Below, in pieces: positions 21,250 through 47,368 of a stretch of DNA of 64,000 nt; position 1 is the stretch's first letter, and each line of letters begins with the position of its first letter. The position numbers and the translations under genes are program-made. A model generated the notes under the pieces. The model was not told the DNA's origin. It was given only the letters and a program-made list of their open reading frames with translations, and searched no databases. This DNA comes from a virus. The stretch lies in IMG/VR virus record IMGVR_UViG_3300033066_002009, positions 8,961 through 72,960 of that record. One strand, written 5' to 3'.

Positions 21250-21314
21250 GTTTCCTAAACTATTGGTAAAAGGAACAGCCACGCGGTTAATTTAATAGAG
21301 ACATGGAGGCCACC

Positions 21315-22760
21315 ATGAACCGTCCAACGTTGGTTGAACAGAAATGGCTCCCGGTGACGCCGGGGGTCGAGATCGACCGAATTCTCGGAGGGCGTTATCG
21401 GATCCTACGAGTAATCGGGGAGGGAGGAATGAGCAAGGTGCTGCTCGGATATGAGCACCTGCCGACGAAGGAGCCGGGCCCGCTCCTAGCACTTCGGCTG
21501 CTCCACCCGGAGTGGTTGGTGAAGGCCGATAATTTCACGCGGGAGCACTACCGGATTCGCTTCAACGCGGAGACGGAACTCCTGCAGAAGATGGTGGCGC
21601 ATCCTAACCTCGTGGGGTTCCAGGGCTCTGGAACACACACGGCGCCCGAAACCCCCGGGACGCCGCGACTGGAGGTTCCCTTCCAGGCTCTCGAGTACAT
21701 CGAGGGCCTCTCAACGGAAGCGCTGCTCAAGAAGCACGCAGGCATCCAGCCCGTCGCCGCAGTGCGCGTCGTGACTATGGCGGCGGCGGGTCTCGGTCAC
21801 GCGCACAAGCACGGGGTGATCCACCGTGATGTTTCCCCCGGAAATATCATGGTCTCCATCACCGGTGATGCTAAGGTCATCGACTTCGGCGTCGCCATCA
21901 GTAACAAGCTGAGGCGTCACACCGCGGTAGACGAGCGTGGGACTCCCAAGCTCGTGTACGGCAAGCCTGCCTACTACGCGCCAGAGCAGTTCATGACGCG
22001 GGCCCTGGACCCGAGGACCGACATCTACGGCCTCGGTCTCGTGCTCCTGGAGCTGATCACTGGCAGGCAGGCAATTCCACCGGATACCCGGATCCAGGAC
22101 CTCCTGGTGGCTCGCGATCGACTGGCGGCACAGCTCTGGGAGCGCTACACCGCCATCCCCGCAGAAGTGCTTCGTGTGGTGGAGCGGATGATCGCTGTCT
22201 CTCCGGATGATCGCTTCGGGAGCATGGAGAATGTCATCACGGCTCTCGAGCGTGCGATGCCTGAATCCGCGCTGACAACGACGCGCAACTTCATCGCCCG
22301 GTTCGCTCAGGTGGGTGTCTGCCTGGACCAGGCTGCGGACCATTCGCGGGAGTTCATCAAGGTGGTCCTCTCCGAGCCCATGCCGGTCCTCGATGGTACC
22401 GTATCCGCGAGAATCGAGCCGGCATCCGAGCACACGAAGGTGGGGGAGGTCGCCCCGCTGAATCTCCTTCCGCCGCCTGCGGCACCAGCCGACCTTCCAA
22501 GGATCGCCGCCGATTTCCTCGACGATCGGCGAACGCAGGCTCGTCCGGCACCGCAGTACACTGTGCCCATGAAACTCGTGGGCACGCCGATCGTCAATCG
22601 GGCCGAAGCCGCGCTCCCAGAGCTGCCGCAGGAGCCCCCTGCGGCCATGACGCTGCCGCCGGCCAATCAGTCCTACATCCGCCTTGGCATCATCATTGGT
22701 AGCATGGTCATTCTGCTGTTGAGCGCCATTCTGATTCTCCTGGTGCTCCGAATGCCTTGA
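21315..22760 (+). CDS. eukaryotic-like Ser/Thr protein kinase with C-terminal membrane anchor
   Basis: Motifs HRDVSPGNIMV (HRDxxxxN), DFGVA and APE. C-terminal hydrophobic helix IIIGSMVILLLSAILILLVL. Confidence 0.75.
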   Translation: MNRPTLVEQKWLPVTPGVEIDRILGGRYRILRVIGEGGMSKVLLGYEHLPTKEPGPLLALRLLHPEWLVKADNFTREHYRIRFNAETELLQKMVAHPNLVGFQGSGTHTAPETPGTPRLEVPFQALEYIEGLSTEALLKKHAGIQPVAAVRVVTMAAAGLGHAHKHGVIHRDVSPGNIMVSITGDAKVIDFGVAISNKLRRHTAVDERGTPKLVYGKPAYYAPEQFMTRALDPRTDIYGLGLVLLELITGRQAIPPDTRIQDLLVARDRLAAQLWERYTAIPAEVLRVVERMIAVSPDDRFGSMENVITALERAMPESALTTTRNFIARFAQVGVCLDQAADHSREFIKVVLSEPMPVLDGTVSARIEPASEHTKVGEVAPLNLLPPPAAPADLPRIAADFLDDRRTQARPAPQYTVPMKLVGTPIVNRAEAALPELPQEPPAAMTLPPANQSYIRLGIIIGSMVILLLSAILILLVLRMP

Positions 22761-36676: not shown

Positions 36677-37216
36677 CTACGCCTCTTCTTCCATCTCTCC
36701 GTGCCAATACATTACATCACGAAGCCACGTTCTCCACTGATCCGGCATCCCTGGCCGCCACGTCAATGTAATCCTCAACGTCCCTGGCATTTTCTTGGGC
36801 CGAACTGGAGTGGACAAAAGTCGCATCCCTACTTTCGCGGGGCTGTGCATTCCCTTTTTTTGATTACAGGGCATGCAGCACACGACGATGTTTTCCCAGT
36901 TCGTCTTTCCGCCTAACGCACGCGGCGTTACGTGGTCGTACGTGAAAGCGTCCCGCGGGACTTTCTGCCCACAGTACTGACAGCAGCCCTTGTCTCGGGT
37001 GTAGATGTTCTCCTTCGAGAACCTCACGGCCCTATTGGTGCGAGACACAATCTTTAGAAGCCGGATAACTGCCGGCATCCTTAACTCAAATGTAATATAT
37101 CTGTCAGGGTATTCTTCGACTACTTCGGCCTTGTTCTTGATAATCAAGCGCAAAGCCCTGCTCCATTTTACGCGAGCATGGGGCGCCCAGCTCGCGTTCA
37201 GCACAAGCGTTTCCAT
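36677..37216 (-). CDS. HNH homing endonuclease
   Basis: Minus-strand RBS AAGGAG. Motifs CCQYCG, YDHVTP and GGKTNWENIVVCCMPCNQKKG. Confidence 0.75.
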   Translation of the reverse strand: METLVLNASWAPHARVKWSRALRLIIKNKAEVVEEYPDRYITFELRMPAVIRLLKIVSRTNRAVRFSKENIYTRDKGCCQYCGQKVPRDAFTYDHVTPRALGGKTNWENIVVCCMPCNQKKGMHSPAKVGMRLLSTPVRPKKMPGTLRITLTWRPGMPDQWRTWLRDVMYWHGEMEEEA

Positions 37217-37242
37217 TTACTCGCTCCTTTCCATCGTAACAG

Positions 37243-37316
37243 TGCCCACGGTGAGATTCGAACTCACACTTGACGGGGTTTGAATCCGTTGCCTCTGCCA
37301 GTTGGACTACGTGGGC
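37243..37316 (-). tRNA. tRNA with Leu anticodon CAA but short variable arm (type-I architecture). A31/C39 mismatch.
   Basis: Acceptor GCCCACG/CGTGGGC, T-arm GTGAGTTCGAATCTCAC, loop TTCAAAC, variable region only 5 nt. Confidence 0.55.
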
Positions 37317-37321
37317 GTTTG

Positions 37322-37403
37322 TGCGGTTGGAGGGAGTCGGACCCTCACGTCACTAGGACACTGGCTTCTAAGACCAGCGCGTATACCATTTCGCCACAAC
37401 CGC
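37322..37403 (-). tRNA. tRNA-Leu(TAG), type II
   Basis: Acceptor GCGGTTG/CAACCGC, loop CTTAGAA, long variable arm. Confidence 0.85.
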
Positions 37404-37442
37404 AAGATTATTTAAATATTGGTAATAGTAAATGTACGTCTA

Positions 37443-37547
37443 TATGGAGGCCACAGATGGATTGGCGAAGTTGAGTGAGAAATTCGGAGGGGCCCTGTGG
37501 TTCCGGTTAAACGCAAACGACGAACAACAGCTCTCCGAATTTTTTTA
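37443..37547 (+). ncRNA. candidate small RNA (AT-rich promoter-like region to terminator)
   Basis: TTGGTAATAGTAAATG upstream. Long hairpin ATTCGGAG...CTCCGAAT followed by T7 at 37541-37547. Confidence 0.3.
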
Positions 37548-37548
37548 G

Positions 37549-37623
37549 TGGCACCAGAGGGATTCGAACCCTCACTCAACAGTACCTCAAACTGTCGCCT
37601 CTGCCAAGTTGGGCTATGGTGCC
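37549..37623 (-). tRNA. tRNA with Leu anticodon GAG but type-I (short variable arm) architecture
   Basis: Clean cloverleaf. Acceptor GGCACCA/TGGTGCC, anticodon stem ACAGT/ACTGT, loop TTGAGGT, variable region TGAGT, T-arm GAGGGTTCGAATCCCTC. Confidence 0.75.
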
Positions 37624-37628
37624 GTTTG

Positions 37629-37702
37629 TGCTCAGGGTGGGAGTCGAACCCACACTCCGCGGGGCTTAAATCCGCTGACTCTTCCAGTTGGTCTACCTGA
37701 GC
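37629..37702 (-). tRNA. tRNA with Leu anticodon TAA (or 9-nt loop), type-I architecture, A31/C39 mismatch
   Basis: Acceptor GCTCAGG/CCTGAGC, T-arm GTGGGTTCGACTCCCAC, loop TTTAAGC. Confidence 0.55.
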
Positions 37703-37707
37703 ATTGG

Positions 37708-37780
37708 TACGGCCCGTGGGGATCGAACCCACCGCGACTTCCGTGTAAAGGAAGCATCACCTCCAGGTGAACTGGGCCGC
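37708..37780 (-). tRNA. tRNA-Val(TAC)
   Basis: Acceptor GCGGCCC/GGGCCGT, loop TTTACAC, CCA encoded. Confidence 0.8.
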
Positions 37781-37784
37781 ATGT

Positions 37785-37794
37785 TGGTATAAGG
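37785..37794 (+). promoter_or_regulatory. promoter-like motif TGGTATAAGG
   Basis: Precedes the 5' stem of sRNA-A by 6 nt. Confidence 0.5.
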
Positions 37795-37798
37795 AAAT

Positions 37799-37899
37799 GC
37801 AACGGGAACGCCGGTCGCACGACCGCTCGTGGAAACTTCCTGCCATGGTTGCTCGCCTTGGGCGGACAAGCTACATCGGCTCCCGTTGCAGTTTTTTTT
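37799..37899 (+). ncRNA. structured small RNA A (~101 nt; 5'/3' closing stem; Y-RNA-like architecture)
   Basis: The 5' sequence GCAACGGGAAC pairs with GCTCCCGTTGC immediately before T9. No ORF. Confidence 0.5.
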
Positions 37900-37901
37900 A
37901 G

Positions 37902-37970
37902 TCGCCGTGGAGATATTCGAAATCTCGTGACCGTTCTTATGAGGAACGTCCCTGTCCTACAGTCACGGCG
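37902..37970 (-). tRNA. tRNA-Met-like (CAT) with truncated D-arm (69 nt)
   Basis: Acceptor CGCCGTG/CACGGCG, anticodon stem CGTTC/GAACG, loop CTCATAA, T-arm GAGATTTCGAATATCTC. Confidence 0.55.
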
Positions 37971-38055
37971 ATTGGTTGCGGGACCAAGTGTTGCACCTTG
38001 GATCGGATCTGGCTTATGAGGCCGATCTGGGAAACTATGCCTACCCTTCCCGCGG

Positions 38056-38127
38056 TGTCCCTGGCCGGATTCGAACCGGCTCTTGTCGCTTAGGAGGCGA
38101 CTGCGCTGTCCATTACGCTACAGGGAC
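38056..38127 (-). tRNA. tRNA-Arg(CCT)
   Basis: Acceptor GTCCCTG/CAGGGAC, stem GTCGC/GCGAC, loop CTCCTAA. Confidence 0.8.
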
Positions 38128-38134
38128 GTCTTGG

Positions 38135-38206
38135 TGTTCTCGGCGAGATTCGAACTCGCAATACAGGCTTCGGAGGCCCGCGTGATGTCCATTTCACCAC
38201 AAGAAC
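38135..38206 (-). tRNA. tRNA-Arg(CCG)
   Basis: Loop CTCCGAA, D stem GTGA/TCAC, CCA encoded. Confidence 0.85.
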
Positions 38207-38211
38207 GTTGG

Positions 38212-38285
38212 TGGCCCTAGAGGGACTCGAACCCCCACAATCCTGGTTCCGTAGACCAGTGCACTGTCCATTATGCTATAGAGCC
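38212..38285 (-). tRNA. tRNA-Arg(ACG)
   Basis: Stem CTGGT/ACCAG, loop CTACGGA, CCA encoded. Confidence 0.85.
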
Positions 38286-38290
38286 ATTTG

Positions 38291-38374
38291 AGGAAGATGG
38301 AGGATTCGAACCCCGAGCCTTTCGACCCACCAGTTTTCAAGACTGGCTGTCCCTGCCTGTGGACTGCATCTTCC
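38291..38374 (-). tRNA. tRNA-Ser(TGA)
   Basis: Stem CCAGT/ACTGG, loop CTTGAAA, long variable arm. Confidence 0.85.
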
Positions 38375-38389
38375 ATTTTACTACTATAG

Positions 38390-38460
38390 TGCCGATAGCA
38401 AGAGTCGAACTTGCGTCTCGCCCTTACCGGGGGCGAATTCTCCCATTGAACTATACCGGC
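38390..38460 (-). tRNA. tRNA-Thr(GGT)
   Basis: Stem CGCCC/GGGCG, loop CCGGTAA. Confidence 0.85.
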
Positions 38461-38465
38461 ATTGG

Positions 38466-38537
38466 TGGACCCGAAGGGAATCGAACCCTCAGCCTTCGGC
38501 TTGCAAAGCCGCTGCACTCCCGTTGTGCTACAGGCCC
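38466..38537 (-). tRNA. tRNA-Ala(TGC)
   Basis: Loop TTTGCAA, G3:U70 wobble in the acceptor stem, CCA encoded. Confidence 0.85.
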
Positions 38538-38541
38538 ATTG

Positions 38542-38612
38542 TGGAGTTGAAGGGAATCGAACCCTCATTCCGGCGATGCGAACGCCGTGTTCTCCCGTTG
38601 AACTACAACCCC
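38542..38612 (-). tRNA. tRNA-Ala(CGC)
   Basis: Stem CGGCG/CGCCG, loop TTCGCAT, G3:U70. Confidence 0.85.
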
Positions 38613-38618
38613 GTTCAG

Positions 38619-38690
38619 TGCGCCCAGAAGGAATCGGACCTTCTACCCCTCCCACGTCAAGGGAGTGTTCTGCCAGTGAACTATGGGCGC
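38619..38690 (-). tRNA. tRNA-Val(GAC)
   Basis: Acceptor GCGCCCA/TGGGCGC, stem CTCCC/GGGAG, loop TTGACGT. Confidence 0.85.
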
Positions 38691-38880
38691 GAACGTTTCT
38701 TTCGAGCAGGCACTACATCCGTTAACACGTCTTTAGGCCGTTCCTCATCTACCGTATTGCTGCAGTCTTGGCAATACGTGATTAATCTTTTTTCTGTTAC
38801 GTGTACAAATAGCTCAACTTTCACGCCGCGGTTAGTGAGGCAGTTCGGACAGATCCTCATCAGTTGATACTACCATTTAG

Positions 38881-38951
38881 TGGAGCCGGCGGGAATCGAA
38901 CCCGCGTTCCGACAATGCCATTGTCGTGTCTTCCCGTTGGACGACGGCCCC
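38881..38951 (-). tRNA. tRNA-Ala(GGC)
   Basis: Stem CGACA/TGTCG, loop ATGGCAT, G3:U70. Confidence 0.85.
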
Positions 38952-38953
38952 TT

Positions 38954-38964
38954 GGTATAAGGGA
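38954..38964 (+). promoter_or_regulatory. promoter-like motif TGGTATAAGGG
   Basis: Drives the downstream small Cys-rich gene. RBS AAGGAG follows. Confidence 0.5.
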
Positions 38965-38985
38965 TTGAACAGACAAAGGAGTGTT

Positions 38986-39222
38986 ATGACCCCGCGAATT
39001 GCATTTGTCGTTCTGTTGGTGTCCTTGGCTATTCTTGTAGGCGGGATGTTCAACATGACCCGCTTCACAAGCACGGCTGACGCCTCCTGCAGGGAACCGG
39101 CCACCGACCGGAATGGCTTCACCGAGTGCTCCAAGTGGGTCGCATGGTGCACCTGCATGGGAGGCAACATATCATGCGTCAGCACGGACCGCGTGAGCAA
39201 GGTGCACTGCATCCTGCGGTAA
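38986..39222 (+). CDS. small secreted/membrane Cys-rich protein
   Basis: RBS AAGGAG. N-terminal hydrophobic segment, then CREP...CSKWVAWCTCMGGNISC. Followed by a terminator. Confidence 0.5.
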   Translation: MTPRIAFVVLLVSLAILVGGMFNMTRFTSTADASCREPATDRNGFTECSKWVAWCTCMGGNISCVSTDRVSKVHCILR

Positions 39223-39236
39223 TCGAAGACCACATT

Positions 39237-39268
39237 GGCCGCGACGCTTCGGCGTCGCGGTTTTTTTG
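39237..39268 (+). terminator. rho-independent terminator
   Basis: Hairpin GCCGCGACGCTTCGGCGTCGCGG followed by T7. Confidence 0.7.
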
Positions 39269-39277
39269 GTTAAAATT

Positions 39278-39351
39278 GTGCCCCGAGTTGGAGTCGAACC
39301 AACATATTCGGCTTTTCAGACCGATACTCGTACCACATGAGTTATCGAGGC
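39278..39351 (-). tRNA. tRNA-Phe(GAA)
   Basis: D stem ACTC/GAGT, loop CTGAAAA, T-arm GTTGGTTCGACTCCAAC. Confidence 0.85.
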
Positions 39352-39354
39352 GTG

Positions 39355-39549
39355 TTAATCAATATTTGCCGAAGCGTCCCGTGGCACACAAACTCCTCGA
39401 CCGGCATCTGTCGTAATGTGGCAAATTGGGTAGTTGGTTTGTTTGCACGGCGAACATCCGGTTCCACAACACACGTTTGGACCCGTATTTTCGGTCGTGA
39501 GGCACCCCGGTGTGGTTAATGCGCACAATGCAAATAAGAGCGTTTTCAT
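39355..39549 (-). CDS. small secreted Cys-rich protein (possibly leaderless)
   Basis: Signal-peptide-like N-terminus, then CCGTGCSPC. Minus-strand TATAAT lies 6 nt upstream of the ATG. Confidence 0.35.
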   Translation of the reverse strand: MKTLLFALCALTTPGCLTTENTGPNVCCGTGCSPCKQTNYPICHITTDAGRGVCVPRDASANID

Positions 39550-39564
39550 GCGTTAATTATAGGG

Positions 39565-39637
39565 CGCCCCTGATGGGAATCGAACCCACCCAGTCTTGAT
39601 TGACAATCAAGCGTTCCCGCCAGGGAACCTCAAGGGC
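39565..39637 (-). tRNA. tRNA-Asp(GTC)
   Basis: Stem CTTGA/TCAAG, loop TTGTCAA, discriminator G. Confidence 0.85.
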
Positions 39638-39644
39638 AATTTGG

Positions 39645-39717
39645 GTGAAAATCGGGGGTCGAACCCGAACCTCCTGGTTCACAGCCAGGCGTGCACAGCC
39701 GGTACACCATGATCACC
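39645..39717 (-). tRNA. tRNA-His(GTG)
   Basis: Stem CCTGG/CCAGG, loop CTGTGAA, extra 5' G opposite discriminator C, T-arm TCGGGTTCGACCCCCGA. The acceptor stem has two mismatches. Confidence 0.65.
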
Positions 39718-39725
39718 GTAAATAC

Positions 39726-39736
39726 GGTAAAAGAAT
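39726..39736 (+). promoter_or_regulatory. promoter-like motif GGTAAAAGAAT
   Basis: Precedes the 5' stem of sRNA-B by 7 nt. Confidence 0.5.
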
Positions 39737-39739
39737 TAG

Positions 39740-39879
39740 TCGAGACGGACCTACAGTATCCTCCCCACGGCTTGTCAGCCCATTGGGCGGTGGTCTTCCG
39801 TTCTGCCGGGACCCGATCCTCCCTCGCAAAGGGCGGGCGCCACCACGAGGCTCTCCTGCCTCCGTCTCGATGTTTTTTT
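39740..39879 (+). ncRNA. structured small RNA B (~140 nt; 5'/3' closing stem)
   Basis: The 5' sequence TCGAGACGGA pairs with TCCGTCTCGA immediately before T7. No ORF. Confidence 0.5.
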
Positions 39880-39881
39880 GG

Positions 39882-39952
39882 TCCGCCACCAGGGAATCGA
39901 ACCCCGATTGCTCGCTAATCAGGCAAGCGTCCTACCGTTGAACGAGTGGCGG
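39882..39952 (-). tRNA. tRNA-Ile(GAT)
   Basis: Loop CTGATTA, CCA encoded. Confidence 0.85.
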
Positions 39953-39959
39953 ATGTTGT

Positions 39960-40010
39960 GGCCAAAAAAAGAGGAGGCGCAAGCGTCTCCTCTTTCCGGC
40001 CCCCTTTCGG
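39960..40010 (-). terminator. rho-independent terminator (two hairpins) for the coiled-coil gene
   Basis: On the - strand: AGGCCCCCGAAAGGGGGCC and GGAAAGAGGAGACGCTTGCGCCTCCTCTTTTTTT. Confidence 0.6.
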
Positions 40011-40018
40011 GGGCCTAA

Positions 40019-41056
40019 CTACGCGCGGCCGGGCTTCTGCTGCCCCGCGCCGTTGCTGCCCTGCTGGAAGGCCTGCGCGGCCTCGTACGCCTTGCGGTCC
40101 GAGACGGCCTCGAACGCCTTGCTGGTCATGTCGGCGATCCTGCCGTGCGCCTCGGCCAGCTTCTGGTTGGCCGCAGCCAGCTGCGACTGCAGGCTCTCGT
40201 TCTGCGCCTTGAGCTGCGCCACGTTCGCATCGGCGAGCGCCTGGGTCTTCTCGAAGCCCGCCTTCTCCAGCGCGAACTGCGCGTTCATCTCCTTCGAGAC
40301 GGAGCTGGTCGCGATCTTCACCGCGGTGTCGACCGCCTTCTTCACCTCGGCGTCGAAGCTGGCCGCCTTCTCCTGCAGCTGCTTCAGCTCGACCTCGCGC
40401 GTCTTCAGCGCCTCCTCGCGGGTCGCCCAGTCCTTGGTCAGCGCATCGATGCGGTCGCGCTCCTGATTCTTGCGGACGCGCATCTCATCTTCGAACTTGT
40501 CCAGCACGGCGCGCTGAGCCTGGGCCGTCTTGTAGTTGAACTCCTTCTCGTCCCGCGCGTGGCGCTCGTTGGCCTCGGCCACACGGGCGCTGAAGTCCTT
40601 CTGCCACGCGTCCTGCTGCTCCTCCCAGCGCGCCTGGGTCTGCTGCACGTTCCGCTGGAACTCCGTCACCAGTCGATCGTGGTCGGCGACCAGCTCGAGG
40701 ATCGTCTTCTTCGCGGTATCGACACCGTAGAGCTGCTCGATCTCCTCGGTGATCGCGTCCTTGAGCGCCTGCACGTCGTCCAGCTCCTGCCACGCCGCCG
40801 TGAGCTTGGGGACGATCCCCTGGATGATGCTGGAGAGGTCGAGGCCGGTCTTGGTGAGATCGGTCACGAGGCTCTCGAGGTTGGCACCGCCGATGCGCTT
40901 CTTGATGCCGCTGATGCGCTCGTCCTCGATGGCCTGCTCCTTCGCGATCACCGGGGAGATCGGCGCAGCCACCTCGGCCTGGAGCTGCTCGAAGGTCTTC
41001 TTGGCCGCCGTCTTGGTGCCGCCGCTCTTGCTGCTCTTGCCACGCGTATTCGCCAT
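40019..41056 (-). CDS. coiled-coil protein (Gln/Glu/Ala/Lys-rich heptads)
   Basis: Minus-strand RBS AGGAGA. About 345 aa, predicted alpha-helical coiled coil throughout. The start could instead be at 41074. Confidence 0.55.
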   Translation of the reverse strand: MANTRGKSSKSGGTKTAAKKTFEQLQAEVAAPISPVIAKEQAIEDERISGIKKRIGGANLESLVTDLTKTGLDLSSIIQGIVPKLTAAWQELDDVQALKDAITEEIEQLYGVDTAKKTILELVADHDRLVTEFQRNVQQTQARWEEQQDAWQKDFSARVAEANERHARDEKEFNYKTAQAQRAVLDKFEDEMRVRKNQERDRIDALTKDWATREEALKTREVELKQLQEKAASFDAEVKKAVDTAVKIATSSVSKEMNAQFALEKAGFEKTQALADANVAQLKAQNESLQSQLAAANQKLAEAHGRIADMTSKAFEAVSDRKAYEAAQAFQQGSNGAGQQKPGRA

Positions 41057-41162
41057 GTTCCTGGTCTCCTGCAAAAAAAGATGCGTACGTTGACGCCGCA
41101 GACGTCACCACGACTTCTGCGTTGTGCATCTTCTTCTACCAAGCACTTGACGTTTTTAATGG

Positions 41163-41236
<74 letters not shown>

Positions 41237-41332
41237 ATGCTGCGTTGCGCCTCCTACCCCGAGCTTTCCAGCGGAATGAACCGCTTCGGGTGTAGTACCC
41301 ATGCAGGTTGGACGGCGCTCCTCCGTGATTGG

Positions 41333-41406
41333 TCGGCGTAGCTGGATTCGAACCAGCGATCCCTCGCTCCCAAAGCGAGTGCGATACCAGACTTCGCTAT
41401 ACGCCG
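41333..41406 (-). tRNA. tRNA-Pro(TGG)
   Basis: Stem CTCGC/GCGAG, loop TTTGGGA, CCA encoded. Confidence 0.85.
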
Positions 41407-41425
41407 AATTTAGGTAAAAGGTTTT

Positions 41426-41548
41426 GCGGATACACGTCTTATTGGCGGTATGGCTGCCAATGTTTGAAGCGATTTACCGGCACGAGAAGAGCCCCGGTGC
41501 AGCTGCGTTGGTCCTCATATCGGGCTCATCGATAAGCCGTGTGTCCGC
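41426..41548 (+). ncRNA. structured small RNA C (~123 nt; 5'/3' closing stem; no T-run terminator)
   Basis: Motif AGGTAAAAGG lies 6 nt upstream. The 5' sequence GCGGATACACG pairs with CGTGTGTCCGC at the 3' end. Confidence 0.4.
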
Positions 41549-41553
41549 GTTAG

Positions 41554-41625
41554 TACCCCGTACCGGATTCGAACCGGCGTCCTCGGATTGAAAGTCCAAG
41601 TGTCCTTCCCATAGACGAACGGGGT
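41554..41625 (-). tRNA. tRNA-Glu(TTC)
   Basis: Stem TTGGA/TCCGA, loop CTTTCAA. Confidence 0.75.
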
Positions 41626-41631
41626 GTCCAG

Positions 41632-41702
41632 TGACCCTGGAGGGAATCGAACCCTCGTTTTTTGGCTGAGAACCAATTTGCCTACCATTAGCAGACAGGG
41701 CC
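41632..41702 (-). tRNA. tRNA-Glu(CTC)
   Basis: Loop TTCTCAG, T-arm GAGGGTTCGATTCCCTC. Confidence 0.8.
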
Positions 41703-41747
41703 TAATGCGGGTAAAAGTTAGTAAGGACCCCTCACAAAGGAGAGTGC

Positions 41748-42401
41748 ATGAAGACGTTGATCGTTACCCTGGCCCTGCTGGTGCTCCCTGCCGCGGCAGG
41801 CTGCGACATTCCAAGGCCGCCAAACGGCAGCATCACCTGCAGTCCCATGTTCCAGTGCCCCGAAGACGCCGACAACCCTGGCACGTTCATGAAGTGCTGC
41901 TGGGACAATCGCTGCTACCGCGGCGACTGCCCACCGATGGCGCCGGGCGCCAGTCCGGTGTGCCCCGACAAGCAGAAGGACGCCCGGGAGGTCGACATCG
42001 ACTGCGGCGCCGCGTCCTGCCAGACGTGCGCGGTCGGCAAGATGTGCGAGTCGGACGCCGACTGCGCCAGCAACTTCTGCTACAACAGTCGATGCACGGC
42101 CACGCAGGATCCCTGCAACAACGGGGTCATCGACGGCCTCGAGACTGCCGCCGACTGCGGTGGCGGGGAATGCCCCCGCTGCGGCAATGGCAAGGGATGT
42201 ATCAGCGGCAACGACTGCGTGTCCACGCACTGCATCGGCATGGTCTGCACTTCGATGAACCTCTTCTCGCCCCTCGACGACGTCGACTTCAAGGGGCAGG
42301 AGAGCCGGGTGCCGTGGCACCTGCGTCCGCTCAAGAAGATGACGGACGACGACTGGCGACAGGCCGTCGAGGCAGCGGAGAAGTCCCAACGTTCCACCTG
42401 A
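41748..42401 (+). CDS. secreted lipoprotein with tandem Cys-rich repeats (CxxCxxGxxCxxDxDCxSxxC)
   Basis: Motif GGGTAAAAGTT, then RBS AAGGAG. Signal peptide with lipobox LPAAAGC. Three or more Cys-rich repeat modules reminiscent of myxobacterial-type Cys-rich repeats. Confidence 0.6.
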   Translation: MKTLIVTLALLVLPAAAGCDIPRPPNGSITCSPMFQCPEDADNPGTFMKCCWDNRCYRGDCPPMAPGASPVCPDKQKDAREVDIDCGAASCQTCAVGKMCESDADCASNFCYNSRCTATQDPCNNGVIDGLETAADCGGGECPRCGNGKGCISGNDCVSTHCIGMVCTSMNLFSPLDDVDFKGQESRVPWHLRPLKKMTDDDWRQAVEAAEKSQRST

Positions 42402-42432
42402 TGTAGACGGGCGGGGTGTATCAAGCCCTGGG

Positions 42433-42464
42433 AGGGTCCGGCTGTATCGCCGGGCCCTTTTTTT
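42433..42464 (+). terminator. rho-independent terminator
   Basis: Hairpin GGGTCCGGCTGTATCGCCGGGCCC followed by T8. Confidence 0.7.
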
Positions 42465-42466
42465 GG

Positions 42467-42534
42467 ACCACCGCCGGGGAGTTGAACCCCGCTACGCCGG
42501 GTTGCAATCGGCGGCCATCCCGGATGCGCGGCAG
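42467..42534 (-). tRNA. tRNA-Cys(GCA)-like with shortened D-arm (68 nt); alternatively reads as TGC
   Basis: T-arm CGGGGTTCAACTCCCCG, discriminator U, loop TTGCAAC with A31/C39, G3:U70 in the acceptor stem. Confidence 0.45.
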
Positions 42535-42540
42535 ACTTTG

Positions 42541-42612
42541 CTCCAGAGGTAGGACTCGAACCTACGTCTCACCGGTTAACAGCCGGGCGCTCTGCCATTG
42601 AGCTACACTGGA
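42541..42612 (-). tRNA. tRNA-Asn(GTT)
   Basis: D stem GCTC/GAGC, loop CTGTTAA, discriminator G. Confidence 0.8.
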
Positions 42613-42625
42613 ATGAAACTACGGG

Positions 42626-42697
42626 AGCCGGCTACGAGAATCGAACTCGTTACCACCTGCTTACAAGGCAGGCGCTCTGCCAATGAGCTATGCCGGC
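42626..42697 (-). tRNA. tRNA-Thr(TGT)
   Basis: Stem CCTGC/GCAGG, loop CTTGTAA. Confidence 0.85.
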
Positions 42698-42715
42698 ATT
42701 TTGGTATAAGTATTT

Positions 42716-42826
42716 GACGACCGCGGGCAAGAAACTCAGGCCAAGGCTGACCGCAGTACTTGGAGCCAAAAGCTCCGCTCTCTGACGGATCCTCGGCAAA
42801 GGGGTAAGCCCGCAGTCGTCTTTTTT
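42716..42826 (+). ncRNA. structured small RNA D (~111 nt; 13-bp 5'/3' closing stem)
   Basis: TGGTATAAG lies 6 nt upstream. GACGACCGCGGGC pairs with GCCCGCAGTCGTC before T6. Internal hairpin GGAGCCAAAAGCTCC. Confidence 0.55.
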
Positions 42827-42828
42827 AG

Positions 42829-42899
42829 TTCCGGGACAAGGACTCGAACCTTGATAGGCGGCTTCAGAAACCGCCGTCCTGCCATTAGACGATCCCGGA
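42829..42899 (-). tRNA. tRNA-Gln(CTG)
   Basis: Acceptor TCCGGGA/TCCCGGA, loop TTCTGAA. Confidence 0.8.
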
Positions 42900-42917
42900 A
42901 TGTTGGTACAAGGATTT

Positions 42918-43023
42918 GACCCTACCACGCACGGTGTTGAGCCTCGTGCTCCTCTCCTCGCGCCCCCATACCCCGTGGGGGAGTTCGGCGTTCCGCTGTG
43001 CGTGACTGGGGTCACTATTTTTT
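42918..43023 (+). ncRNA. structured small RNA E (~106 nt; 5'/3' closing stem)
   Basis: TGGTACAAGG lies 6 nt upstream. GACCC..ACGCACGG pairs with CCGCTGTGCGT..GGGGTC before the T run. Confidence 0.5.
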
Positions 43024-43025
43024 AG

Positions 43026-43096
43026 TTCCGGTGGAAGGAATCGAACCTCCGTAGCAGGCTTCAAAGTCCCGCGTCCTGCCATTGAACGACACCGGA
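43026..43096 (-). tRNA. tRNA-Gln(TTG)
   Basis: Acceptor TCCGGTG/CACCGGA, loop CTTTGAA. Confidence 0.8.
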
Positions 43097-43169
43097 AAAA
43101 CTACTTACGCCCTGTTAGCCGCACACGCGGGCGTACCGTGTCACTCACTAAGACGGCGTTTCATCTTTG

Positions 43170-43240
43170 TGCGGGTAGGGAGAATCGAACTCCCGTGACC
43201 AGTTTGGAAGACTAGCGTTCTACCATTGAACTACACCCGC
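43170..43240 (-). tRNA. tRNA-Gly(TCC)
   Basis: D stem GTTC/GAAC, loop CTTCCAA. Confidence 0.85.
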
Positions 43241-43245
43241 GTTAG

Positions 43246-43318
43246 TGCCCCCGGTGGGAGTCGAACCCACAACTAACCGATTAAAAGTCGGCTACGCTGC
43301 CAATTGCGTCACGGAGAC
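43246..43318 (-). tRNA. tRNA-Lys(TTT) second copy
   Basis: D stem ACGC/GCGT, loop CTTTTAA, T-arm GTGGGTTCGACTCCCAC. Confidence 0.8.
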
Positions 43319-43323
43319 GTTGG

Positions 43324-43395
43324 TGGCGTGGGCTGGATTCTCACCAGCACTTCGAGCCTCTAGGGCTCGCGTCTTAAAAATTTGACCACCGCGCC
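43324..43395 (-). tRNA. degenerate tRNA-like element (anticodon loop CCTAGAG; D-loop lacks GG; T-loop TGAGAAT)
   Basis: Acceptor GGCGCGG/CCACGCC with CCA encoded. Perfect anticodon stem CGAGC/GCTCG. The conserved D-loop and T-loop nucleotides are absent. Confidence 0.4.
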
Positions 43396-43400
43396 ATTAG

Positions 43401-43473
43401 TGCCCCCACTCGGGTTCGAACCGAGATCACCCGGTTAAGAGCCGGATCGATTAGCCAATTATCGGATGGAGGC
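43401..43473 (-). tRNA. tRNA-Arg(TCT)
   Basis: D stem CGAT/ATCG, loop CTCTTAA, T-arm CTCGGTTCGAACCCGAG. Confidence 0.85.
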
Positions 43474-43585
43474 ATTGTGCAGGGCAACAGCCCTGCTATT
43501 TCGTCAAATTCCACTATTCTTTTTTCAGTTTGCCCGACTACACGGTTTTCGCATTTCGCTACTCAACTCGCCGGGTAAAACTCAG

Positions 43586-43670
43586 TGGAGCGGATAGGAC
43601 TCGAACCTATGAAGACCCGAAGGTCGACTGATTTACAGTCAGCTGTCTTTGCCGCTTGAACAACCGCTCC
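43586..43670 (-). tRNA. tRNA-Tyr(GTA), type II
   Basis: Acceptor GGAGCGG/CCGCTCC, loop CTGTAAA, long variable arm. Confidence 0.85.
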
Positions 43671-43716
43671 ATTAAAGCTCGATATTTATATACGGCCTCG
43701 AAGACCGGGTCGTTGG

Positions 43717-43788
43717 TGCGGATGGCGGGAATCGAACCCGCGGCCTGATGCTTGGCAAGCACCCGTGGTACCACTCCACTACATCCGC
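43717..43788 (-). tRNA. tRNA-Gly(GCC)
   Basis: D stem GTGG/CCAC, loop TTGCCAA, CCA encoded. Confidence 0.85.
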
Positions 43789-43792
43789 GCAG

Positions 43793-43863
43793 AGCCCTAG
43801 GGGAGAGTCGAACTCCCATTGCCTGTGTACGAAACAGGCAGTCTACCGTTGACTTACCAGGGC
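43793..43863 (-). tRNA. tRNA-Thr(CGT)
   Basis: D stem AGTC/GACT, stem CCTGT/ACAGG, loop TTCGTAC. Confidence 0.85.
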
Positions 43864-43864
43864 G

Positions 43865-43934
43865 CATGTCGCCAGGGAATCGAACCCTGAAGCAGGAGTT
43901 TTGGAGGCTCCATGGTGACCATCACCTGCGACAT
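43865..43934 (-). tRNA. tRNA-Trp(CCA)
   Basis: Acceptor ATGTCGC/GCGACAT, loop CTCCAAA, short D-loop. Confidence 0.7.
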
Positions 43935-45565: not shown

Positions 45566-47368
45566 GTGCCCACCAAAATCGGAGTAGCCGCCGCAAGAGC
45601 GGCCCTCGGCATCCCCAGCCGAGATTCCATACACCCAATTCCTGACGTGAAAACGCCTAGGACTTGGGAGTATGGGCTCCACGAGCACGACGCGGATCGT
45701 CGTGGCCTCCATCTAGATCTCCGCCTTGGTGACCCAGCTACAGGTCACGCACATTCTTGGGCTCTTCAACCTAAGATGCCTGCACCGGGAGACGTCGCGT
45801 GGGCGATTCAACAGCCCACTCATACGGTCGAGTACATGGACTTCAAGGGCCGTATCCCGGAAGGATACGGCAAAGGCGACGTTGTCTTGAAAGACCGCGC
45901 CAAGACAGAGATCCTGAACGCAACGCCAGACCACATTACGTTTGCAGTCTACCGAGGGCAGGGTCCGGAGGAATACACGCTTCACCGTATCGATGGAAAC
46001 AAATGGAAATTCTACAACCGCACACTTACGCGAGACAAGGTTCCAGATCTCCCTCTAGACAAACCCAAGTATAAAGACGGTGACTACACTTCCCTGGATC
46101 CATCTAAGGAAGAGACGGTTTGGTCGGCCAAGATTGATGACGCCCACAACTTGTTCTTCCTGCCCAAGGATGGACGTGTTCGTGTAATTTCGTATCGCCC
46201 AACTTCTCGCCCGTCTGGCGTAATCGAGCACACGCATAAGATCGAGTCTTTGCACAACACTTGGACGCCTAAGGATGTTGCAGGCACTGTTTTACGTGGT
46301 GGCCTGTATGCTCTTAATCCAGAGACGGGCAATGCGACACCTAATAACGTCCTTGCCGGCATGCTCAACGCGAACGTCTGGAAATCCAGGGATGCCCAAA
46401 AGGTGCACGGTAAGCTTATCCCTGTGATCTACGACGTTGTCATGTACAAAGGGCGTGAGATGTCAAATGCTCCTTATGAAGAAAAGCTTCATGTGTTGCA
46501 GGAAGTAAATAAGGCGATTCCGTCCTTGGTTCTTCCGCGTATGGCCAAAACCCGGGACGAGAAGATCAAGCTAAAAGATGACATCGCCGCTCACCGTCTT
46601 CCAGAGACAAAGGAAGGGCTTGTCGTCTGGCCTTTGAAATCTGGTGATGCGCCGATCAAGGCCAAGATTACCAAAGAACACGACGTGTACGTAAAGGAGA
46701 TTTTCCCTGGAGAGGGCAGGTTAAGTGGGGCCTCTGCCGGCGGCTTTACCTACGCACACGACTCTGACGGCGATGAAGTTGGGCGCGTTGGCACCGGTCT
46801 TTCTGATTCTCTTCGCCGTCACATGTGGGAAAACAAAGATAATTACAAGGGCATGGTTGCCACAGTGAGTGCACAAGATAAATACGACAGTGGTGCACTC
46901 CGCGCTCCATCATTTTTAGGGTGGCATTTGGATAAAAACGATCAGACGCGTCTCGATGCCGTCAAACACTCAGGGGAGTCCCTGGGGAAACAGGCGGCAA
47001 TGGTTGCGGTTCAGAGGCCTTTTAGCCCGATCGAATCTATGGCGTTTCCGGGGTTTTCTCTTGGAAAGGCAGCCGCGCATGCGCATATCCGAATGGAAGA
47101 GCGCAGTAGTGTAGACCCGAAATATGTGGATACGATCAACAATTTCCTGCGGAAGAAAGATCTTCCACGCATGCAGATGCATTTGATGCTGCCAGACGGG
47201 GCTGTGATGCAGATTATCCCGATTGGCAGGAAAACGCATGTTGTGTCGACAGTTTTACCAAAGGGCACACGCCCCAAGGGTCCCCCACTAGGGGCGGTTC
47301 TTTCCCGTGGAAAGATCCCTATTGCGCCTCTTCTGAAGAATCGTATTGACGTCGCCATCGATCCGTAA
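45566..47368 (+). CDS. ATP-dependent DNA ligase with N-terminal LigD-type 3'-phosphoesterase domain
   Basis: GTG start with RBS AGAGGG. The N-terminal HEHDADRRGLHLDLRL...HSWALQPKMP resembles the LigD PE motif (HxHDxxxLHYDxRLE). Ligase motif I KDGRVR is present (KxDGxR). Confidence 0.6.
   Translation: MPTKIGVAAARAALGIPSRDSIHPIPDVKTPRTWEYGLHEHDADRRGLHLDLRLGDPATGHAHSWALQPKMPAPGDVAWAIQQPTHTVEYMDFKGRIPEGYGKGDVVLKDRAKTEILNATPDHITFAVYRGQGPEEYTLHRIDGNKWKFYNRTLTRDKVPDLPLDKPKYKDGDYTSLDPSKEETVWSAKIDDAHNLFFLPKDGRVRVISYRPTSRPSGVIEHTHKIESLHNTWTPKDVAGTVLRGGLYALNPETGNATPNNVLAGMLNANVWKSRDAQKVHGKLIPVIYDVVMYKGREMSNAPYEEKLHVLQEVNKAIPSLVLPRMAKTRDEKIKLKDDIAAHRLPETKEGLVVWPLKSGDAPIKAKITKEHDVYVKEIFPGEGRLSGASAGGFTYAHDSDGDEVGRVGTGLSDSLRRHMWENKDNYKGMVATVSAQDKYDSGALRAPSFLGWHLDKNDQTRLDAVKHSGESLGKQAAMVAVQRPFSPIESMAFPGFSLGKAAAHAHIRMEERSSVDPKYVDTINNFLRKKDLPRMQMHLMLPDGAVMQIIPIGRKTHVVSTVLPKGTRPKGPPLGAVLSRGKIPIAPLLKNRIDVAIDP

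What the first reader, a model, noticed from the sequence alone, without database searches (positions are those of the whole stretch)
37243..37702. Three adjacent tRNAs with leucine anticodons (CAA, GAG, TAA) but type-I (short variable arm) architecture
tRNA 37549-37623 folds cleanly with anticodon stem ACAGT/ACTGT, loop TTGAGGT and a 5-nt variable region. Its neighbours at 37243-37316 and 37629-37702 read as loops TTCAAAC and TTTAAGC with an A31/C39 mismatch. Bacterial tRNA-Leu normally has a long variable arm, and a canonical type-II tRNA-Leu(TAG) sits between them at 37322-37403. These could be identity-switched tRNAs that are charged with another amino acid while reading Leu codons. Alternatively they could be unusual Leu isoacceptors.
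Basis: seen in the sequence. Interest (0 to 1): 0.6.

Follow-up and report, generated by a model that had tools for sequence, protein, structure and literature searches.

The report
Short-armed leucine tRNAs in phage array
The three short tRNAs are real and most likely ordinary leucine tRNAs of a widespread "armless" type that is native to actinobacteria and carried by many phages, not tRNAs that insert a different amino acid.

Summary
Three minus-strand genes (37243-37316 CAA, 37549-37623 GAG, 37629-37702 UAA) are high-scoring tRNAs with 5-nt variable loops. A type II tRNA-Leu(UAG) lies between them.

The identity-switch idea is not supported.
- All three keep the bacterial LeuRS recognition set: A73, U8:A14, A15:U48, G18G19, A20a and a 3-bp D stem. 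None has G3:U70.
- Their D-arm motif retrieved more than 120 viral and more than 120 bacterial loci. In these, 225 of 226 motif-bearing tRNAs are 73-79 nt long with Leu anticodons, covering all six.
- In Actinomycetota these tRNAs are lone chromosomal genes. tRNA(CAA) here is 93% identical to the one in Amycolatopsis.
- A Streptomyces type I tRNA-Leu(CAA) has been shown to be leucylated (Fan 2019).
- A covariance model built without the window scores the three at 77-86 bits. The next best window tRNA scores 60 bits or less.
- In two conserved phage proteins, TTG, CTT and CTC codons align with Leu in homologues as often as CTG does. TTA has only three columns.

Verdict: new members of a known but little-discussed kind. 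Leucylation in this host is inferred, not shown.

The parts
37243..37316 (-). tRNA-Leu(CAA), type I. It is 74 nt up to A73, with a 5-nt variable loop CAAGU, an A31.C39 mismatch and no encoded CCA.
   Evidence: ARAGORN. Rfam tRNA 50.8 bits. Family model R1 85.7 bits. It is 93% identical to the chromosomal tRNA-Leu(CAA) of Amycolatopsis.
37322..37403 (-). [quoted passage not shown]
   Evidence: ARAGORN. Rfam tRNA 58.3 bits. Family model R1 gives only 39.5 bits.
37549..37623 (-). tRNA-Leu(GAG), type I. It is 75 nt up to A73, with G37, variable loop UGAGU and one extra U in the D loop (AACUUGGCAGA).
   Evidence: ARAGORN. Rfam tRNA 58.0 bits. Family model R1 77.1 bits.
37629..37702 (-). tRNA-Leu(UAA), type I. 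It is 74 nt up to A73, with variable loop GGAGU and an A31.C39 mismatch.
   Evidence: ARAGORN. Rfam tRNA 49.7 bits. Family model R1 81.2 bits. It is 81% identical to a Solirubrobacteraceae tRNA-Leu(UAA).
35727..43934 (-). Context only: the minus-strand tRNA array in which the four Leu genes sit. It holds 37 ARAGORN calls. Ser and Tyr genes in it keep their long arms.

Best explanation
The three genes are working leucine tRNAs of the type I (short variable loop) kind, carried in the tRNA array of a large phage.

They keep everything a bacterial leucyl-tRNA synthetase is known to read:
- discriminator A73
- the U8:A14 pair
- the A15:U48 Levitt pair
- G18G19 and A20a, in a D loop spaced like that of type II tRNA-Leu
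- a 3-bp D stem

They lack only the long variable arm, which bacterial LeuRS does not require. The host LeuRS, or a phage LeuRS outside this window, charges them with leucine. They then read UUG (CAA), CUC/CUU (GAG) and UUA/UUG (UAA). Together these make up about two thirds of the Leu codons in the phage genes sampled. In this way they supplement or replace the host tRNA pool during infection.

What is shown: the genes, the fold, the identity elements, family membership, and the Leu meaning of TTG, CTT and CTC (TTA only weakly, from three columns). What is inferred: expression, charging with Leu in this host, and the benefit to the phage.
For: 1. Real tRNAs. Rfam scores are 50-58 bits and ARAGORN gives clean cloverleaves.

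2. Identity elements. All three have A73, U8, A14, A15, G18G19, A20a and U48. Their 3:70 pairs are C:G, C:G and U:A. This is the E. coli LeuRS identity set listed in PMC9976931. [quoted passage not shown]

3. Family membership.
- The D-arm pattern TAGNCCAAYTGGNAGAGNC retrieved at least 120 IMG/VR loci. There, 111 of 112 pattern-bearing tRNAs are 74-79 nt long with Leu anticodons (tag, caa, taa, gag, cag, aag).
- The same pattern retrieved at least 120 genome loci, where 114 of 114 are such tRNAs.
- Of the 315 pooled type I Leu tRNAs, 313 have A73, 309 have U48 and 3 have G3:U70.
- Stems covary. 98.2% of cells are paired against 65% in shuffles and 33-47% when slid, and the covariation score is 0.896 against 0.218.

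4. Covariance model. Model R1, built from 46 members without the window sequences, scores A, C and B at 85.7, 81.2 and 77.1 bits. The best other window tRNA scores 59.8 bits.

5. Native in bacteria. Of 89 Actinomycetota loci, 86 hold the gene as a lone chromosomal tRNA. tRNA A is 93% identical to the Amycolatopsis gene and 91% to the Gordonia gene. The type I tRNA-Leu(CAA) of S. coelicolor is leucylated by its LeuRS in vitro, and attempts to delete its gene failed (PMC6614811).

6. Codon meaning. In alignments of two window proteins, each with 119 homologues, I measured the fraction of homologue residues that are Leu at each column:
- TTG 0.64 (n=12)
- CTT 0.61 (n=14)
- CTC 0.47 (n=42)
- TTA 0.33 (n=3)
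- CTG 0.57 (n=34)
- CTA 0.36 (n=3)
- non-Leu codons 0.04
- Ile/Val/Met/Phe codons 0.11
.

7. Only Leu has lost the arm. Ser and Tyr tRNAs keep long arms in this window, in phage wV8 and in the pooled loci, with rare exceptions. This fits the synthetases: SerRS is known to need the arm and LeuRS is not (my own knowledge plus PMC9976931).

8. Cultured phages carry annotated short tRNA-Leu genes. Examples are Bixzunavirus, Felixounavirus, T5-like phages and Streptomyces phages.
Against: - No charging or expression data exist for these genes.
- The host is unknown.
- E. coli LeuRS did not leucylate the Streptomyces type I tRNA-Leu(CAA) (PMC6614811). Acceptance of a type I tRNA-Leu therefore depends on the synthetase and cannot be assumed for every host.
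- tRNAs A and C have an A31.C39 mismatch, and C has G37 after A36.
- The codon test has few TTA columns (n=3).
- The codon test cannot exclude low-level misincorporation alongside host tRNA-Leu.
- tRNAscan-SE isotype models could not be run.
Confidence: 0.85

Rival explanations
1. Identity-switched (mistranslating) tRNAs. They have the body of another isotype and an anticodon mutated to Leu. They are charged with a different amino acid and insert it at Leu codons.
For: The only support is the type I shape, which is atypical for bacterial tRNA-Leu. Deliberately mistranslating tRNAs are known in Streptomyces (my own knowledge, not checked here).
Against: - There is no G3:U70, so the anticodon-independent AlaRS route is closed.
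- There is no long arm, so the SerRS route is closed.
- The D-arm signature is tied to Leu anticodons in 225 of 226 tRNAs and covers all six Leu anticodons. Single anticodon switches would not produce that pattern.
- The nearest non-Leu tRNAs are only 62-69% identical, against 76-93% for the nearest type I Leu tRNAs.
- TTG, CTT and CTC codons align with Leu in homologues.
- In Actinomycetota the same kind of tRNA is a lone chromosomal Leu(UAA), Leu(CAA) or Leu(UAG) gene.
Confidence: 0.03
2. Non-decoding tRNA look-alikes. They would be pseudogenes, or decoys that soak up a host tRNA-targeting nuclease or a modification enzyme, and would not be used in translation.
For: The window does hold several aberrant tRNA-like elements at 43321-43395, 37902-37970, 37975-38050 and 35344-35420. 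A and C have an A31.C39 mismatch.
Against: - All three have intact acceptor, D, anticodon and T arms, U33, a purine at position 37 and the conserved tertiary positions.
- They score 77-86 bits on a family model whose stems covary.
- The A31.C39 mismatch is tolerated in 11 of 148 family members.
- Their anticodons match codons the phage uses heavily, with CTC+CTT at 48% of Leu codons.
Confidence: 0.05
3. These are functional Leu tRNAs, but the trait under selection in phages is the missing arm itself. An armless tRNA-Leu would escape host anti-phage nucleases that recognise or cut type II tRNAs, or would be portable between hosts. This reading adds to the best explanation and does not exclude it.
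For: - Outside Actinomycetota the family sits mainly in dense tRNA arrays (19 of 31 loci) and in phages of many hosts.
- Phage tRNAs that escape tRNA-cleaving defences are documented (PMC10264068, PMC11555353).
- Defences that cut the variable loop of tRNA-Tyr are documented (PMC13096335, PMC12673091, abstracts).
- The array in L248 has the same split as the window, with four type I Leu genes and one type II Leu(UAG).
Against: - No nuclease specific for the tRNA-Leu variable arm is known to me in bacteria.
- The type II Leu(UAG) is kept in the same array.
- In Actinomycetota the type I form is simply the host's own form. Plain capture of host genes would explain tRNA A, which is 93% identical to the Amycolatopsis gene.
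Confidence: 0.15

Closest known systems
Streptomyces coelicolor type I tRNA-Leu(CAA) (Fan et al. 2019, NAR, PMC6614811)
   Same: It is a bacterial tRNA with a Leu anticodon, a 5-nt variable loop, U8:A14 and G18G19. It coexists with type II tRNA-Leu and has been shown to be leucylated by the single host LeuRS.
   Different: The S. coelicolor tRNA has C48 (variable loop ACAGC), whereas the window tRNAs and the family found here have U48 paired with A15. The S. coelicolor gene is chromosomal, not phage-borne. Three anticodons are type I here, against one in S. coelicolor. I could not align the S. coelicolor sequence itself.
Single-copy chromosomal type I tRNA-Leu of Actinomycetota (Mycobacterium, Nocardia, Gordonia, Corynebacterium, Amycolatopsis, Arthrobacter and others; found)
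   Same: These genes share the D-arm motif, A73, U48 and the 74-nt layout. tRNA A is 88-93% identical to their tRNA-Leu(CAA).
   Different: They are lone host genes, usually one isoacceptor per locus. The window has three in a phage array. tRNA B(GAG) has no close bacterial counterpart, with a best match of 76%.
Short tRNA-Leu genes annotated in cultured phages and in mycobacterial tRNA clusters (Bixzunavirus, Felixounavirus wV8, T5-like phages, Streptomyces phages; Behra et al. 2019, PMC6582537)
   Same: These are 74-79-nt tRNA-Leu genes in phage or mobile tRNA arrays, often next to HNH endonuclease genes, as here (ORF 36677-37216). In wV8 all three Leu tRNAs are type I while Ser and Tyr stay type II.
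   Different: Nucleotide identity to the window genes is only about 72-80%. The phage lineage is different: the closest protein relatives of the window are uncultured 462-735-kb phages.
Animal mitochondrial type I tRNA-Leu
   Same: It has a short variable loop and A73/A14-based leucine identity (PMC9976931).
   Different: Mitochondrial tRNAs have a degenerate D/T elbow and a dedicated LeuRS. The window tRNAs have a fully canonical elbow. ScoLeuRS does not charge human mitochondrial tRNA-Leu.
Engineered E. coli minimal tRNA-Leu without the variable arm (cited in PMC9976931)
   Same: They show that E. coli LeuRS needs A73 and the D/T tertiary core but not the arm or the anticodon. These are exactly the features kept here.
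   Different: They are laboratory constructs, not natural genes.

Membership tests
Type I tRNA-Leu family (Actinomycetota chromosomes and phage tRNA arrays) | tRNA cloverleaf with a 4-5-nt variable loop and no variable-arm helix | tested here: met
   ARAGORN folds give variable loops CAAGU, UGAGU and GGAGU.
Type I tRNA-Leu family (Actinomycetota chromosomes and phage tRNA arrays) | Leu anticodon (NAG or YAA) in a 7-nt loop with U33 | tested here: met
   The anticodons are CAA, GAG and UAA. The loops are UUCAAAC, UUGAGGU and UUUAAGC.
Type I tRNA-Leu family (Actinomycetota chromosomes and phage tRNA arrays) | D-arm signature U8 A9 G10 N C12 C13 A14 A15 Y U G18 G19 N A G A G N C25 (3-bp stem, 11-nt loop) | tested here: met
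   A and C match exactly. B matches apart from one extra U before G18 (AACUUGG). The signature is Leu-specific in 225 of 226 tRNAs.
Type I tRNA-Leu family (Actinomycetota chromosomes and phage tRNA arrays) | Discriminator A73 and U48 (partner of A15) | tested here: met
   Both are present in all three. In the family, 313 of 315 have A73 and 309 of 315 have U48. Neither position was part of the search pattern.
Type I tRNA-Leu family (Actinomycetota chromosomes and phage tRNA arrays) | Scores on a family covariance model well above other isotypes | tested here: met
   Model R1, built without the window sequences, gives 85.7, 81.2 and 77.1 bits. The best other window tRNA scores 59.8 bits and the type II Leu scores 39.5 bits.
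Type I tRNA-Leu family (Actinomycetota chromosomes and phage tRNA arrays) | Charged with leucine by LeuRS | not testable with these tools
   This has been shown only for S. coelicolor tRNA-Leu(CAA) (PMC6614811). Indirect support here comes from codon-to-residue alignments.
Canonical bacterial type II tRNA-Leu | Long variable arm (more than 10 nt, with a helix) | tested here: not met
   The three have 5-nt variable loops. The neighbour at 37322-37403 does meet this feature.
Canonical bacterial type II tRNA-Leu | A73, A15:U48, G18G19, A20a and a 3-bp D stem with the N13-AAYUGGNAG-A22 layout | tested here: met
   The layout is the same as in the type II tRNA-Leu genes of L265 (GGAAUUGGUAGAC). The identity set is taken from PMC9976931.
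Identity-switched or mistranslating tRNAs (body of one isotype, anticodon of another) | Identity elements of a non-Leu isotype, such as G3:U70 for Ala, a long arm plus G73 for Ser, or a closest body from another isotype | tested here: not met
   The 3:70 pairs are C:G, C:G and U:A. The discriminator is A73. The nearest non-Leu tRNAs are 62-69% identical, against 76-93% for the nearest type I Leu tRNAs.
Identity-switched or mistranslating tRNAs (body of one isotype, anticodon of another) | The codons concerned correspond to a non-Leu residue in conserved proteins | tested here: not met
   TTG, CTT and CTC columns are 0.47-0.64 Leu in homologues, against 0.04 for non-Leu codons. TTA has only 3 columns.

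The most novel reading that the evidence does not exclude
Armless tRNA-Leu may be a mobile, phage-favoured design. The missing variable arm would let the tRNA escape host defences that recognise type II tRNAs, or let it work with the LeuRS of many hosts. On this reading the A15:U48 version spread from Actinomycetota through phage tRNA arrays into phages of Proteobacteria, Cyanobacteria, Planctomycetota and others. If so, the textbook rule that tRNA-Leu is type II everywhere except animal mitochondria is broken on a large scale by viruses.
Probability: 0.15. Interest if true: 0.6.

Novelty: new member of a known kind. Interest (0 to 1): 0.3.

Why it matters
For this window the result is reassuring. 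The phage does not recode leucine codons, so its genes can be translated with the standard code. The three genes should be annotated tRNA-Leu.

More widely, the searches show that type I tRNA-Leu is not a curiosity of one Streptomyces species. It is the normal form of at least one Leu isoacceptor across many Actinomycetota. It is also common in phage and mobile tRNA arrays.

[quoted passage not shown] In the searchable library only one paper uses the term "type I tRNALeu". This matters for three groups:
- Annotators, because isotype-model mismatches for these genes are not pseudogene signals.
- Researchers studying LeuRS-tRNA co-evolution.
- Designers of orthogonal tRNAs.

Tried and rejected
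- **Nine-nt anticodon loop or pseudogene reading.** Rejected. ARAGORN, Rfam and the family model all place a 7-nt loop with U33, and the scores are high.
- **Alanine identity through G3:U70.** Rejected. The pair is absent.
- **Phage LeuRS in the window.** None found. The large ORFs are a major-vault-protein-like protein, a kinase, a LigD-like ligase, a gp5-like protein and an HNH endonuclease. The rest of the 108.5-kb source contig could not be fetched. The look-up returned only an 11-kb Logan contig.
- **T5 as an experimental precedent.** Rejected. T5's own annotated tRNA-Leu(UAG) is type II at 85 nt. Only some T5-like phages have the short form.
- **Fourth short 'Leu(tag)' at 43321-43395 as a family member.** Rejected. 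It scores 38 bits on R1, lacks G18G19, has C33 and folds with a 5-nt loop. Its D-arm 17-mer has only two chance matches in IMG/VR.
- **Promoter and terminator scan around the Leu cluster.** Uninformative.
- **Literature searches for a description of phage type I tRNA-Leu.** They found only passing remarks.
- **Host assignment.** Unresolved. tRNA A points to Actinomycetota. The homologues of the vault-like protein that carry a taxon name are from Myxococcota-type MAGs.

Full report
**1. What is there**

ARAGORN finds 39 tRNA genes in the window. Of these, 37 lie in a minus-strand array between 35.7 and 43.9 kb. The finding's three genes are called tRNA-Leu(caa), tRNA-Leu(gag) and tRNA-Leu(taa). 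A type II tRNA-Leu(tag) lies at 37321-37403.

The Rfam tRNA model matches exactly the finding's coordinates, at 50.8, 58.0 and 49.7 bits against a gathering score of 29.

Read on the minus strand, each gene has:
- a 7-bp acceptor stem
- U8 A9
- a 3-bp D stem closing an 11-nt loop (C-AACUGGCAG-A in A, C-AACUUGGCAG-A in B, C-AACUGGAAG-A in C)
- a 5-bp anticodon stem, with an A31.C39 mismatch in A and C
- a 7-nt loop with U33
- a 5-nt variable loop ending in U48
- a canonical T arm
- discriminator A73

The only omission is that the genes are on the minus strand.

**2. Identity elements**

According to the identity review PMC9976931, E. coli LeuRS reads A73, the A15:U48 Levitt pair, G18G19 and A20a, together with the D/T tertiary core. 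It reads neither the anticodon nor the long arm, and arm-less and anticodon-less variants of E. coli tRNA-Leu remain active.

All of these elements are present in A, B and C. The D-loop layout is the same as in ordinary type II tRNA-Leu genes, for example those of locus L265.

The 3:70 pairs are C:G, C:G and U:A, so the anticodon-independent alanine route is closed. Without a long arm the serine route is closed as well. The other synthetases that accept A73 tRNAs mostly read the anticodon (established knowledge), which here is a Leu anticodon.

**3. A large family, not three oddities**

I used the D-arm motif TAGNCCAAYTGGNAGAGNC as a probe.

Of the 112 ARAGORN tRNAs containing it, 111 are 74-79 nt long (some with an encoded CCA) and carry Leu anticodons: tag 50, caa 25, taa 25, gag 5, cag 4, aag 2. 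The exception is one Met(cat) call.
- In one genome per GTDB species it again hit at least 120 stretches. All 114 tRNAs containing it are 73-78 nt long with Leu anticodons.

Pooling all fetched loci gives 315 type I tRNAs with Leu anticodons. Of these, 313 have A73, 309 have U48 and only 3 have G3:U70. None of these positions was part of the probe.

In 148 distinct 74-nt members, 98.5% of stem cells are standard pairs, against 41-49% when the partners are slid. On a 46-sequence alignment, the count of structure pairs gives:
- 98.2% paired, against 65.0% in shuffles
- 295 cells changed on both sides, against 73 in shuffles
- a covariation score of 0.896, against 0.218 in shuffles

These are tRNAs under purifying selection. 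Their body type is tied to leucine anticodons across all six Leu codon readers. Single anticodon switches would not produce that pattern.

**4. Membership of the window genes**

I built covariance model R1 from 46 family members, leaving the window sequences out. It scores A at 85.7 bits, C at 81.2 and B at 77.1. The best other tRNA in the window, a tRNA-Lys, scores 59.8. The neighbouring type II tRNA-Leu scores 39.5.

The nearest neighbours of A are chromosomal tRNA-Leu(CAA) genes:
- Amycolatopsis, 93% identical
- Gordonia effusa, 91%
- Corynebacterium, 88%

C is 81% identical to a Solirubrobacteraceae tRNA-Leu(UAA). B is 76% identical at best, to phage genes. The nearest non-Leu tRNAs are 62-69% identical.

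**5. Where the family lives**

Of the 120 genome loci, 89 are from Actinomycetota. In 86 of those the gene is a lone tRNA within its 8-kb stretch. The anticodons are mostly Leu(UAA), followed by CAA and UAG, and the sequences are nearly identical across genera. That is the signature of a core, vertically inherited gene.

Of the 31 loci from other phyla, 19 are dense tRNA arrays with 5-34 tRNAs in 8 kb.

Among cultured phages, a consensus query finds annotated short tRNA-Leu genes in:
- Bixzunavirus mycobacteriophages
- Streptomyces phages
- Felixounavirus
- T5-like phages
- a 469-kb Sinorhizobium phage
- cyanophages

In phage wV8 all three tRNA-Leu genes are type I, while Ser and Tyr remain type II. 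The same holds in this window, where the Ser genes are 84-88 nt and the Tyr gene is 86 nt.

An independently retrieved IMG/VR array, L248, repeats the window's arrangement. Its CAG, CAA, UAA and GAG tRNAs are type I and its UAG tRNA is type II.

**6. What is published**

Fan et al. 2019 (PMC6614811) studied S. coelicolor.
- Its tRNA-Leu(CAA) is type I.
- It is leucylated by the single ScoLeuRS and by human mitochondrial LeuRS.
- It is not leucylated by E. coli LeuRS.
- The authors failed to knock out the gene.
- It needs U8:A14 and a 5-nt variable loop.

Behra et al. 2019 (PMC6582537) remark that a tRNA-Leu(TAG) in a horizontally acquired mycobacterial tRNA cluster has a short variable loop. 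An HNH endonuclease gene is predicted within the larger tRNA-gene cluster of the same strains.

I found no paper that describes the phage family as such. [quoted passage not shown]

**7. Direct test of recoding**

I aligned two conserved window proteins, each with 119 database homologues. They are the vault-protein-like ORF at 30956-33595 and the LigD-like ligase at 45566-47368. For every codon I measured the fraction of homologue residues that are Leu at that column.

| Codon class | Read by | Leu fraction | Columns |
|---|---|---|---|
| TTG | type I tRNAs | 0.64 | 12 |
| CTT | type I tRNAs | 0.61 | 14 |
| CTC | type I tRNAs | 0.47 | 42 |
| TTA | type I tRNAs | 0.33 | 3 |
| CTG | other tRNAs | 0.57 | 34 |
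| CTA | other tRNAs | 0.36 | 3 |
| all non-Leu codons | - | 0.04 | - |
| Ile/Val/Met/Phe codons | - | 0.11 | - |

The codons served by the type I tRNAs therefore mean leucine. TTA is undersampled.

In 18 ORFs, Leu makes up 8.9% of codons. The split is CTC 29%, CTG 24%, CTT 19%, TTG 13%, CTA 10% and TTA 6%. The three type I tRNAs thus cover about 67% of Leu codons.

**8. Mechanism and confidence**

The best-supported account is plain. These are leucine isoacceptors that LeuRS recognises through the acceptor end and the D/T core. The phage carries them, together with some 35 other tRNAs, to sustain translation of a genome whose codon use probably differs from the host's.

The main uncertainty is the synthetase. 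E. coli LeuRS rejected the Streptomyces type I tRNA. That tRNA has C48, whereas the family found here has the A15:U48 pair that E. coli LeuRS requires. Felixounavirus phages of E. coli and Salmonella rely on type I tRNA-Leu only.

If the host is an actinobacterium, as the 93% identity of tRNA A suggests, type I tRNA-Leu is simply the host's own format. I put 0.85 on leucine identity and function. I put about 0.03 on identity switching and about 0.05 on non-decoding look-alikes.

A further hypothesis does not exclude the best explanation. It holds that arm loss itself is selected in phages, as escape from defences that target type II tRNAs or as portability between hosts. It remains open at about 0.15.

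**9. Verdict**

The three genes are new members of a known kind, though one that is under-described. Interest is modest for this locus. The breadth of the family is the more useful by-product.

Noticed in passing
window 35186-35238 (+): A stand-alone 53-nt element matches the L11-binding GTPase-associated-centre hairpins of bacterial 23S rRNA (RF02541 positions 1095-1146, E=1.4e-5, posterior probability about 1). It lies inside the tRNA array. The 36-nt core GGAGGUUGGCUUAGAAGCAGCCAUCCUUUAAAGAGU recurs in 18 IMG/VR contigs with unrelated flanks, often right next to tRNA genes, so it is not rRNA contamination. It may be a phage-encoded rRNA-domain mimic or decoy. I found no literature on it.
   Followed up: partly
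window 37902-37970 (-) and 37975-38050 (-): ARAGORN missed two cloverleaf-like elements with CUCAUAA anticodon loops (anticodon CAU). The first has a 4-bp D stem with a 3-nt loop and a normal T arm (fold z=-3.2; 25.8 bits on R1). The second has an 8-nt T loop. ARAGORN calls no tRNA with a CAU anticodon (Met, fMet or Ile2) in the window, so these may be non-canonical CAU tRNAs.
   Followed up: partly
window 43321-43395 (-): This is an aberrant 'tRNA-Leu(tag)' call. It has no G18G19, a T loop of UGAGAAU, C33 and an encoded CCA. Its minimum-energy fold has a 6-bp anticodon stem with a 5-nt loop CUAGA. It scores 50.7 bits on Rfam tRNA but only 38 bits on the type I Leu model. Its D-arm 17-mer has only chance matches in IMG/VR.
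   Followed up: partly
window 35344-35420 (+) and 35631-35699 (-): Two further tRNA-like cloverleaves fall below the detection thresholds. The first scores 28.6 bits on Rfam tRNA (gathering score 29) and has a CUUAGAA loop, giving a UAG anticodon. The second has a good acceptor stem and T arm but an irregular anticodon region.
   Followed up: partly
window 30956-33595 (+): An 879-aa ORF has a major-vault-protein shoulder domain (1.6e-24). It is 35% identical to ORFs of uncultured 462-735-kb phages and about 40% identical to proteins of Myxococcota-type MAGs. It uses only CTC, CTG and TTG for Leu, unlike neighbouring genes, which hints at recent acquisition from a high-GC donor.
   Followed up: partly
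window 36677-37216 (-): An HNH endonuclease ORF (HNH_5, 2.7e-17) directly abuts tRNA-Leu(CAA). HNH genes also sit among the tRNA genes of T5 and wV8, and in the mycobacterial tRNA clusters described in PMC6582537.
   Followed up: no
L248 (IMGVR_UViG_3300025536_000012, 136.9 kb): This viral contig holds 35 tRNAs in 9 kb. It has the same Leu arrangement as the window (CAG, CAA, UAA and GAG type I; UAG type II) and also carries the rRNA-like element. It may be a relative of the window's phage.
   Followed up: partly
genome loci L126-L245: Type I tRNA-Leu shows a two-way distribution. In Actinomycetota it is a lone chromosomal gene in 86 of 89 loci. In other phyla (Planctomycetota, Cyanobacteria, Myxococcota, Acidobacteriota and others) it sits mostly in arrays of 5-34 tRNAs per 8 kb. 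One hit is on a contig binned as a Nitrososphaerales archaeon (L217).
   Followed up: partly
window 38878-38951 (-): An Rfam tmRNA match (47.9 bits, gathering score 47) coincides with tRNA-Ala(GGC) at 38880-38951. It spans 74 nt against a 374-position model, so it is a tRNA-like-domain false positive and not a tmRNA.
   Followed up: no
window 21303-22760 (+) and 45566-47368 (+): The window also encodes a Ser/Thr protein kinase (Pkinase, 9e-29). In addition it encodes a LigD-type 3'-phosphoesterase fused to an ATP-dependent ligase, with many homologues on large contigs.
   Followed up: no
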